This document shows, one piece after another, positions 48,401 through 51,400 of a stretch of 64,000 nucleotides of DNA. The stretch comes from Octopus vulgaris. Its lineage: Eukaryota. Position numbers and translations under genes: made by a program. The DNA lies in assembly GCA_951406725.2 (NCBI GenBank), contig OX597818.1:90086001-90150000 (forward strand), given 5' to 3'. Each line of letters begins with the position of its first letter. Within the stretch, counting starts at the first letter, position 1. Below the pieces are notes generated by a model. It saw only the letters and a program-made list of their open reading frames with translations, made no database searches and was not told where the DNA came from.

Positions 48401-51400
48401 TTCACAAATAAAACTTGACCTAATTAACCCTTGGCCATCCCATTATAGCCTCACTTTTCTTCAAGCCCTCCCCCCTCGCAACCCAATGGATCTTTCAACC
48501 GCCCCCAAGGGAACATTACTACCCACTCTGGGGTCCATTGGCTCAGACAATGTAGTCATTAGTATACAAAATGACCGGATGATCATGGCTGCTGCATGTT
48601 TGATAACAGACCCATCTGAGCAGGACTGAACTGGGGTTCACAGGAAAATCCCCCCCCCCCAAAAAAAAAGAATTCAAATATCTATATCAAACACTTTTGA
48701 TTTTTTGTACTTCCGGTCGACGAGGAAGAACTGGAAACTTTAATTTATATCGCTTGATAATGTCATTATTTGTTTCGCTGTTTTCATTCAAGACGGCTTT
48801 CGCATTAAGAGCATATTTTAAAATAAAACGATATATATCCTACTAACACTTGGTCAGAAAGCAAGCTTATCGAACATTGTAGAATACAAAAGAACATTTG
48901 ATTATTTTTAACCAGGGAATATGTATAACTAGTAAGACTGATAAAGTATATTATCTGTACTTATTTTATAACTATCACGGAATTTTTCACGGGTCTGGCT
49001 AGTATATATCTATATATTATTGTATTAATATGATGCAAGAATACAAGAATAGCTGTGTACTTGCACGACTTCGGGTGAAATTTGAGAGCATTTATATATA
49101 TATATGCGTGTGTGTGTACGTATTTACATACATATACATGTAAAATATATATACATATGTATATACACATATATACATGCACACACACACACAAACACAT
49201 CACACACACACACACACATATATATATATATACATACATATGTATACATATGTATATCTCTCTCTATATAAATACTGGTATATAAATATATATACATACA
49301 TGCATGCATCTCTCTCTCTCTCTCTATCTCCCTATATATATATATATATATATATACATGTATATATTTAGGGCTAAAAACCACTAAGTGGATAGCCATA
49401 TGCTCGAAGAAGATCACATACGATCTAACTACAAAGAAAGAATGTTCTCCAGAGAAAATTCAGCGAACACCAGAACATAGGCGGGCAAGACAGATGAAAA
49501 TTACATAAAAATCAAGAATTAATCGTATACCGATTTCGTCTATTACCGAATAAATTACTTACGTAATCCTTCGTCCCTAGATTCATCAGTACGATCGTTC
49601 CACATTCAATATAATTTGCAAAACTAAACACCAAATTATATTGAATGTGGAACGATCGTACTGATGAATCTACGGACGAAGGATTACGTAGGTAATTTAT
49701 TCGGTAATAGACGAAATCGGTATACGATTAATTCTTGATTTTTATGTAAATTTTCATCTGTCTTGCCCGCCTATGTTCTGATGTTCGCTGAATTTTCTCT
49801 GGAGAACATTTTTTCTTTGTAGTTAGATCGTATGTGATCTTCTTCTAGCATATGGGTATCCACCTAGTGGTTTTTTAGCCCTAAATATACACATGTACTG
49901 AAATTTTTTCTGATTTTTCAGATTTTTTATATGCTAAGCTACTGGTTTTAAATTGATATTAATTAAATTAATATTCAATTTATCTCCCTCATTATTTATA
50001 TATATATATATATATATATATATATATATATATATATATATATACATATCAACATCTGTTTTAGATCTGGATGAGTGCAGACTTAGCAATGGAATGTGCA
50101 GTGATATATGTATAAACTTTGAAGGATCTTACCATTGCCAGTGTAAGAGAGGTTATTTCCTTCAGCATGATAAGCTCACCTGTCAAGGTAAGTGATTTTT
50201 GTTAAATGTGACCTCGTGTGTTCCGTTGGCGATTTTTTTTCCCTCTGTCTTCCCTTCTCTGGATCTTTCCTTCTATGTTTCCGACGAAGAACTCCGCTCG
50301 AAACGTCAAACCCTCCTTCTTTCCTTCTTTCCTGAGCGTCCAATAATACTATATTTGTTCCACGTCCTCACGTTGTTGTGTTTTTTTTGTGCTTTCTTGT
50401 TTGGATTAACTTTATATATATATATATATATATATATATATATATATATATATATATATATATATATATATATATATATATGTATATATATTTGTATATT
50501 CATTTGTATATATATATCAGGTAATTAAGAATGAAATGTCTGAGTTTCTTTTGTACGAAGTTTAACAGTCTAATGTGTTATCCTGGCAAATCTTTGTTTT
50601 ACAACATAAAAATTTACATCAATTTTCGAAATGCAATTCATGGTATCTGATTATATTATGAGTTTTCTCTTGTAAATCAATTGTTAAGTTAAGGAGAGAT
50701 TAAAAAATTCATGCTGTTCCGTGGTGGAACCAATGCATCCCAGACACCACAAAATATCAATGTGGTGTTTGGTGAAGATGTGGCGAATGAGCACACTGTA
50801 CATCGATGGTTTGAGAAGTTCCTTTTACTCTTGAAAATCAATTGGTAGACCTGAGACCAAGGTGGATAATGATGAGCTGGAAACTGCAGTGGAAGCCGAT
50901 ACATCTCAATCTATGCGTGAGTTACCAGCAAGGTTTGATATTTCGATTTCAGCTGTATGTGTCCATCTGCAACAAATCGGCAAGGTAAAGAAGCTGGACA
51001 GGTGGGTACCACATGAACTGAACGAGCATCAAATGACACGTCGTCTTAAAACTCGCTGTCACGGCATAAAAGCGAACCATTTTTGCATCGTATTGTTACG
51101 GGTGATAAAAAATTAATTGTTTTCAACAATAGCAAGCGTTTTGCACGGTGGTTGGCTAGAAACGAAGAGTAAAAAGCAAAATCCCAAAAAGAATATTCAC
51201 AAAATCCAAAAAAGCTAATGGTGTCTGCTTGGTGATCTAGCACCGGTGTCATTCCCTACAGCTTCAAGAAACCTGTTAAGTCAATTACAGCGGATGCATA
51301 CACCAGCCAGCTGGATGAAATGATGAATGAACTTGCAATTAAACAACCGAGATTGGTCAATAGAGAAAGGCCAATTCTCTTGCAAGACAAGATGTTGCAC

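What the first reader, a model, noticed from the sequence alone, without database searches (positions are those of the whole stretch)
49355..49897. 540-bp hairpin that locks a canonical sense-strand hammerhead just upstream of exon 14
Seen: ~264-bp near-perfect arms with a 13-nt loop, ending ~170 nt before the exon 14 acceptor. The right arm holds a canonical CTGATGA/GAAA/GTA hammerhead and the left arm, transcribed first, is its antisense. Established: Penelope-like elements often form inverted terminal structures, and long dsRNA is a substrate for ADAR and Dicer. Inference: the hairpin would mask a ribozyme that could otherwise cut the pre-mRNA, and A-to-I editing might loosen it, giving an editing-sensitive switch or an endo-siRNA source.
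Basis: partly seen in the sequence, partly recalled or inferred. Interest (0 to 1): 0.72.

Follow-up and report, generated by a model that had tools for sequence, protein, structure and literature searches.

The report
Routine inverted Penelope-type retroelement insertion
This hairpin is real, but it is one copy of a dispersed repeat whose copies often sit as back-to-back pairs, likely left by a jumping element; its self-cutting RNA motif is predicted to be crippled, so it is likely an ordinary by-product and not a gene switch.

Summary
Observation confirmed: arms 49355-49618 and 49632-49897 (96% identical, 8 substitutions, 2 indels) with a type I hammerhead, predicted cut after 49722. The element does not end there: it runs on to about 49997. 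It is one insertion of a ~540-nt non-coding repeat. Of 84 loci sampled, 39 show the same head-to-head inverted, 5'-truncated arm. 3' ends cluster at two sites ~100 nt apart next to microsatellites, and the two arms of an insertion nearly always use different sites (15 vs 1). This matches published Penelope-like element (PLE) structure: inverted copy, one-sided tail, two reverse-transcription start sites. The hammerhead is not canonical: the conserved G10.1-C11.1 pair is an A·C mismatch (a subfamily trait), helix III is a 2-bp dimer-type palindrome, and the window holds no second sense copy. Modelled editing of 75% of adenosines still leaves at least 24 kcal/mol against the ribozyme fold, so the editing switch is not supported; passive editing or siRNA production is plausible but untested. 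The autonomous partner was not found. Earlier scan notes describe other, rewired hammerheads in this genome; none matched this sequence.

The parts
49355..49633 (-). Inverted, 5'-truncated copy of the repeat unit (unit positions 436 to 173, counting from the predicted cut); includes the 13-nt 'loop'; its 3' end is the proximal ('short') family end site and abuts (TA)n
49632..49997 (+). Direct, 5'-truncated copy of the repeat unit (unit positions 449 to ~275); its 3' end is the distal ('long') family end site
49619..49633 (.). Head-to-head junction: 13 nt present only in the inverted copy, plus a CA (49632-49633) that fits both copies
   Evidence: and sequence; upstream family sequence
49655..49728 (+). 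Type I hammerhead motif, sense to the host gene: stem I 49655-49660/49723-49728, CUGAUGA 49661-49667, A10.1 49668 opposite C11.1 49712 (mismatch), long irregular stem II, GAAA 49713-49716, 2-bp helix III with palindromic AUCGGU 49716-49721, predicted cut after 49722
49522..49595 (-). Mirror copy of the same hammerhead motif in the inverted arm
49898..49997 (+).
49332..49356 (.). Left part of the (TA)n target tract
49996..50044 (.). Right part of the (TA)n target tract
50065..50187 (+). Downstream host exon, one calcium-binding EGF domain (PF07645, E 1.3e-10); the intron holding the insertion runs 48074-50064

Best explanation
The hairpin is one copy of a dispersed, protein-free ~540-nt repeat carrying a hammerhead motif, and it likely arose as a neutral by-product when a Penelope-type enzyme inserted that repeat into a TA microsatellite from both DNA strands. 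Shown: repeat family, tandem-unit structure, head-to-head arms, two 3'-end sites, microsatellite flanks, mismatch in the ribozyme. Inferred: a PLE protein supplied in trans nicked both strands, primed one cDNA at each of the RNA's two internal start sites, and the two cDNAs joined at a 2-nt microhomology near their truncated ends; the region copied twice is the hairpin and the part copied once is the tail. Inferred: the ribozyme is near-silent in the pre-mRNA with or without the hairpin; the duplex may be edited or diced passively.
For: 48 matches from 40 scored of 2318 candidates, 88-98% identical outside this locus. A ~535-nt circularly permuted unit, longest Met ORF 40 aa. Adjacent inverted 5' arm in 25 of 60 loci and 14 of 24 further loci; arms of 200 nt or more in 5 of 60, whole hammerhead in both arms in 4 of 60. 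3' ends followed by a microsatellite in 55 of 60 loci against 16.5% of window positions. With both ends at a preferred site, one short plus one long end in 15 loci vs 1 with the same end, p=0.0005; tail-selected loci 8 vs 0. This locus is the commonest class (inverted short, direct long). The two arms are sisters in the tree (97/75, not a starred branch), share three minority variants and differ by scattered uncompensated changes. Literature: inverted 5'-truncated copy, one-sided tail and (TA)n bias (PMC8557442, passages); two internal start sites defining the tail, both strands nicked and extended, hammerhead mutants still insert (PMC11167929, main text parts 1-2 of 4); short-helix-III hammerheads weak and dimer-dependent, G10.1-C11.1 highly conserved (PMC4209133, parts 1-2 of 4).
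Against: No autonomous partner was found: none of 30 GIY-YIG loci resembles the unit (30 of 148 matches examined, 1.5 kb flanks), and no family locus is joined to a PLE reading frame (one weak hit at L099 lies ~500 nt outside the element). The tail is ~100 nt against 30-40 nt published. Coincidence of the arms' 5' ends is significant overall (8 of 39 within 16 nt, p=0.008) but not in the hammerhead-selected subset (2 of 27, p=0.49). The truncated 5' ends of non-inverted copies also abut microsatellites in 15 of 35, and the outer end of the inverted arm in only 15 of 25. Samples come from best-hit and exact-pattern searches, so the frequencies are not genome-wide estimates. Neutrality is inferred from sequence only.
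Confidence: 0.82

Rival explanations
1. One reading: the left arm is kept to mask an active ribozyme, and A-to-I editing opens the hairpin to let it cut the pre-mRNA.
For: The motif is sense to the host gene, the antisense arm is transcribed first, and the duplex buries the core. Young repeats are the main A-to-I targets in animals (PMC9989829, passages).
Against: A10.1·C11.1 mismatch; 2-bp helix III; dimer helix -3.1 vs -8.3 kcal/mol for the family-majority palindrome; inactive fold favoured by ~8 kcal/mol in the arm alone. No second sense copy in the window. With edited A's treated as unable to pair and the core spared, the ribozyme fold still costs a mean of 95, 82, 58 and 35 kcal/mol at 10, 25, 50 and 75% editing, minimum 24 (25 draws each). 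The same geometry arises routinely.
Confidence: 0.03
2. Same origin as the best explanation, but the locus has a real passive effect: the 264-bp duplex is hyper-edited or diced, or alters use of the nearby acceptor.
For: Long near-perfect duplex in a sense intron; the element ends ~65 nt from the acceptor; general editing of young repeats.
Against: Nothing measured. The acceptor and its short pyrimidine tract lie outside the insertion. Arm differences are uncompensated.
Confidence: 0.35
3. Assembly or library artefact (fold-back chimera).
For: No direct support; the junction could not be checked in reads of this individual.
Against: The arms differ at 10 places, each arm keeping the family-majority base at some of them. 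Both outer ends fall on the family's two end sites, and 38 other loci have the same layout.
Confidence: 0.02
4. The hairpin is a MITE or foldback DNA transposon, or arose by post-insertion DNA rearrangement.
For: Long inverted arms in a TA context.
Against: Arms have variable inner ends, 35 of 60 loci have no inverted arm, copies form partial head-to-tail tandems, and one arm carries an extra tail. The 543-bp hairpin as such was seen only at this locus among those sampled.
Confidence: 0.05

Closest known systems
Penelope-like elements (Penelope/Poseidon, Neptune, Naiad): pLTR with inverted 5'-truncated copy and tail (PMC8557442, PMC3846280, PMC11167929)
   Same: Partial tandems, head-to-head inverted 5' copy, tail at one end only, microsatellite targets, type I hammerhead with palindromic helix III.
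   Different: No RT-endonuclease frame; tail ~100 nt rather than 30-40; no sequence link to an autonomous PLE found.
Metazoan non-LTR retrozymes, proposed non-autonomous PLE derivatives (bioRxiv 10.64898/2026.07.22.740005, parts 1-2 of 5 read)
   Same: Non-coding unit of a few hundred nt with a type I hammerhead, dispersed copies.
   Different: Sampled copies reach at most ~1.6 units (L020, 849 nt); this copy has no two sense hammerheads, which that paper requires for an 'active' retrozyme; circular RNA not tested.
Minimal and short-helix-III PLE hammerheads (PMC4209133; review PMC6765202, passages)
   Same: Type I order, palindromic helix III, expected to need a dimer.
   Different: A10.1·C11.1 instead of the conserved G-C; no extra base between 9 and 10.1; stem II is a long irregular hairpin (45 nt between the boxes).

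Membership tests
Type I hammerhead ribozyme | Core boxes CUGANGA, GAAA, NUH in order with stem I closing | tested here: met
Type I hammerhead ribozyme | G10.1-C11.1 pair opening stem II | tested here: not met
   A·C in both arms; among 55 family motifs A·C 24, G-C 22, A·A 8, G·A 1
Type I hammerhead ribozyme | Helix III stable as a monomer | tested here: not met
   2 bp with a 2-nt loop; palindrome pairs only as a dimer, -3.1 kcal/mol
Type I hammerhead ribozyme | Self-cleavage at the predicted site | not testable with these tools
   only contigs available, no raw reads
Type I hammerhead ribozyme | Match to an Rfam hammerhead model | tested here: not met
   none among 21 matches at E up to 10
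Penelope-like element (autonomous) | RT plus GIY-YIG reading frame | tested here: not met
   longest Met ORF in the doubled unit 40 aa; no PLE frame joined to family loci
PLE-mobilised non-autonomous element | Partial tandem and inverted 5'-truncated arrangement | tested here: met
   39 of 84 loci inverted; tandems such as L016, L020, L094
PLE-mobilised non-autonomous element | Optional tail at one end, from two 3'-end sites | tested here: met
   15 mixed vs 1 same, p=0.0005; ~100 nt long
PLE-mobilised non-autonomous element | Microsatellite or AT-rich target bias | tested here: met
   55 of 60 vs 16.5% background
PLE-mobilised non-autonomous element | Sequence homology to the pLTR of an autonomous PLE | tested here: inconclusive
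   none in 30 of 148 GIY-YIG matches examined; PLEs with RT and GIY-YIG are present in the genome
Non-LTR retrozyme | Two or more tandem units each with a complete hammerhead | tested here: inconclusive
   not met at this locus; L020 holds two same-strand motifs, one with a core change
Non-LTR retrozyme | Circular RNA intermediate | not testable with these tools
   no raw RNA reads
MITE / foldback DNA transposon | Fixed terminal inverted repeats shared by copies | tested here: not met
   35 of 60 loci lack an inverted arm; arm lengths vary from under 50 to 357 nt

The most novel reading that the evidence does not exclude
An editing-gated ribozyme: a whole subfamily (32 of 55 aligned segments) carries A opposite C11.1, and A-to-I editing of that one base would restore a G-C-like pair, switching the hammerhead on in free family transcripts (not inside this hairpin). 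Two G copies nested in the A group could be reverse-transcribed edited RNAs. Against: two such changes are within chance (p=0.07), there is no A>G strand bias in the copies (p=0.69), 8 motifs have A·A where editing would not help, and PLE insertion does not need cleavage in vitro (PMC11167929). Two paper searches listed no natural example (listings only).
Probability: 0.04. Interest if true: 0.75.

Novelty: new member of a known kind. Interest (0 to 1): 0.2.

Why it matters
The locus itself is ordinary. The family has modest value for PLE biology: its two 3'-end sites lie ~100 nt apart, so the rule of one start site per strand can be counted directly (15 vs 1), which fits one RNA being copied by two enzymes. 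A subfamily that kept spreading after losing the G10.1-C11.1 pair is a natural parallel to the in vitro result that hammerhead cleavage is dispensable for insertion. It also shows that this mechanism seeds long dsRNA hairpins into introns without any selection.

Tried and rejected
Rfam scans of the window and the locus gave no hammerhead model. Search for the autonomous partner: 30 of 148 GIY-YIG matches compared with the unit, no real similarity; a PLE protein against 114 family loci (60, 30 and 24, partly overlapping) gave one weak hit outside the element; an older-subfamily pattern gave 4 loci, none with a PLE frame among the 3 new ones. Sequencing runs: no RNA holder listed, all rows were contigs, best share 0.37. 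Four DNA-type runs laid on 49580-49997 gave hundreds of family contigs; no listed piece bridges the junction, but the table was cut and this proves nothing. Four guessed-RNA runs gave 5-18 contigs each, mostly other family copies at 90-95%; two low-depth contigs run across the predicted cut; the few A>G rows cannot be told from copy differences. Editing footprint in genomic copies: A>G 1.31% vs T>C 1.21%, p=0.69. Scan notes near this place and by sequence: none. Lünse et al. on dimer cleavage was not held; I saw it only as cited in a review. Orientation bias of copies in introns was not tested (no annotation). A target-site duplication cannot be read inside (TA)n. The script consensus lacks ~4 nt at its seam, so unit coordinates are approximate. 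Supplements were not read for any paper; PLE hammerhead alignments or repeat libraries there might already hold this family.

Full report
Observation. Aligning the region to its reverse complement gives arms at 49355-49618 and 49632-49897 with 8 substitutions and 2 one-base indels, and a predicted RNA hairpin of -430.9 kcal/mol. A motif scan of both strands of the window found the hammerhead at 49655 (+) and its mirror at 49595 (-), plus one weak unrelated match. The host is an EGF-repeat gene on the + strand; the intron runs 48074-50064. The exon number is not: I count it as the 15th EGF-type exon in the window.

What it is. The right arm matched 48 places from 40 scored of 2318 candidates in the own genome. 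Best-hit and exact-pattern searches gave 111 loci, 60 after removing duplicates. They define a ~535-540-nt circularly permuted unit with no reading frame over 40 aa. Mapped on the unit, this locus is an inverted copy (positions 436-173) joined head-to-head to a direct copy (449-275) that runs 100 nt beyond the hairpin to ~49997. The 13-nt loop is unit sequence present only in the inverted copy, and a CA at 49632-49633 fits both copies. Both outer ends abut (TA)n.

The layout is routine. An adjacent inverted 5' arm occurs in 25 of 60 loci and in 14 of 24 more (four members of one local array were dropped). Arms of 200 nt or more occur in 5 of 60, and the whole hammerhead in both arms in 4 of 60. 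Main 3' ends are followed by a microsatellite in 55 of 60 against 16.5% of window positions; the truncated 5' ends of non-inverted copies do so in 15 of 35. 3' ends cluster near unit positions 170 and 275. Where both arms end at such a site, they use different sites in 15 loci and the same site in 1 (p=0.0005); among loci chosen by the tail, 8 vs 0. Samples are biased towards close relatives, so these are not genome-wide rates.

Mechanism. Craig et al. (PMC8557442, passages) describe partial tandems, an inverted 5'-truncated copy, a 30-40 bp tail often at one end only, and (TA)n bias for PLEs. PMC3846280 (passages) shows the same in rotifers. Frangieh et al. (PMC11167929, parts 1-2 of 4) report that a PLE protein nicks and extends both strands, starts at two internal sites that bound the tail, is predicted to be a dimer, and inserts RNA with dead hammerheads equally well. 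My inference: two enzymes on one RNA each primed from one nicked strand at a different start site, and the cDNAs joined by microhomology. The arms are sisters in the tree (97/75) and share three minority variants, as a single template predicts. Their 5' ends coincide more often than chance overall (8 of 39 within 16 nt, p=0.008) but not in the hammerhead-selected subset (p=0.49), so that support is weak. The mobilising element was not found, although PLE frames with RT and GIY-YIG exist in the genome.

The ribozyme. Across 55 family motifs the free position 7 takes four states and the cut base two (A 47, C 8), while other core changes are mostly rare. I read this as past selection for activity in source elements. 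This copy belongs to a group with A at 10.1: 32 A and 2 G under one starred branch (98/93). Cervera and de la Peña (PMC4209133, parts 1-2 of 4) list G10.1-C11.1 as highly conserved and found such motifs inactive as monomers and weak as dimers. How much an A·C mismatch lowers the rate is recalled, not measured; one search gave no direct test. Helix III has 2 bp, and its palindrome pairs as a dimer at -3.1 kcal/mol against -8.3 for the majority form. The arm alone prefers a fold that pairs the core, by ~8 kcal/mol; intact-core G-C motifs pay a median 5. No other copy lies in the window.

The switch idea. Opening the motif from the duplex costs ~106 kcal/mol. Treating edited adenosines as unable to pair, and sparing the core, leaves a mean of 58 at 50% editing and 35 (minimum 24) at 75%; the chance that five core adenosines escape is 3% and 0.1%. 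That inosine at core positions is harmful is recalled knowledge. Editing of young repeats is common in animals (PMC9989829, passages), so passive editing is likely but would not act as a switch. No raw reads were available to test it.

Comparison and verdict. It works like a non-autonomous PLE derivative or retrozyme. It is not an autonomous PLE, and at this locus it fails the two-hammerhead criterion of bioRxiv 10.64898/2026.07.22.740005 (parts 1-2 of 5). A recent octopus repeat annotation does not use the word ribozyme in its main text (PMC13282606, passages); a search for octopus with hammerhead ribozyme listed 4 papers, none on this family by title or abstract start. The octopus label comes from earlier scan notes, not from my test. 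Verdict: new member of a known kind, interest 0.2.

Noticed in passing
family loci L003-L108 (tree): A subfamily with A10.1 (32 segments, plus a subset with A·A at 10.1/11.1) kept amplifying after losing the conserved pair; two G copies (L025, L039) are nested inside it.
   Followed up: partly
window 49915-49997: The tail is far more abundant than the hammerhead part: summed contig depth ~0.1-0.7 million vs a few hundred to several thousand in DNA-type runs (not a copy number). Many tail-selected loci are short 5'-truncated copies; a larger sister family may share it.
   Followed up: partly
L132, about 270-330 nt past the GIY-YIG match: A PLE remnant's 3' region holds GAAACCGGTC, the same helix III palindrome and GUC site as the older subfamily, without a CUGANGA box directly upstream, and ends at (TA)n. 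Possible lead to the mobilising element or to the rewired hammerheads of earlier notes.
   Followed up: no
L118, L123 and others: An abundant PLE family with a 781-aa frame (RT plus C-terminal GIY-YIG) has many apparently intact copies; its 3' region is unrelated to this unit.
   Followed up: partly
window 16478-60541, + strand: Host gene with about 20 single-EGF exons in the window; not identified further.
   Followed up: no
window 43759-45105 (+): 449-aa open frame with an RT domain (PF00078), a LINE remnant in an intron.
   Followed up: partly
window 39979-41374 (+): Two adjacent frames of a hAT-like transposase remnant (PF05699 in the second).
   Followed up: partly
window 37320-37745 (-) and about 50700-51500 (+): Mariner-like remnants: Mos1 HTH at the first (PF17906); the second judged by eye.
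   Followed up: partly
window 10502-10882 (+) and 31261-32025 (+): A FLYWCH zinc-finger frame and a zf-RVT-like frame, probably transposon-derived.
   Followed up: no
window 6149-6281 and 50270-50402: Another repeat pair, 133 nt, 91% complementary, 44 kb apart.
   Followed up: no
L157-L161: Five near-identical tail-only copies within 16 kb of one contig, apparently a local tandem duplication.
   Followed up: no
L026 1772-2086, L028 157-983, L012 1099-1294: Other long near-perfect hairpins unrelated to this unit in the flanks, suggesting such hairpins are common in this genome.
   Followed up: no
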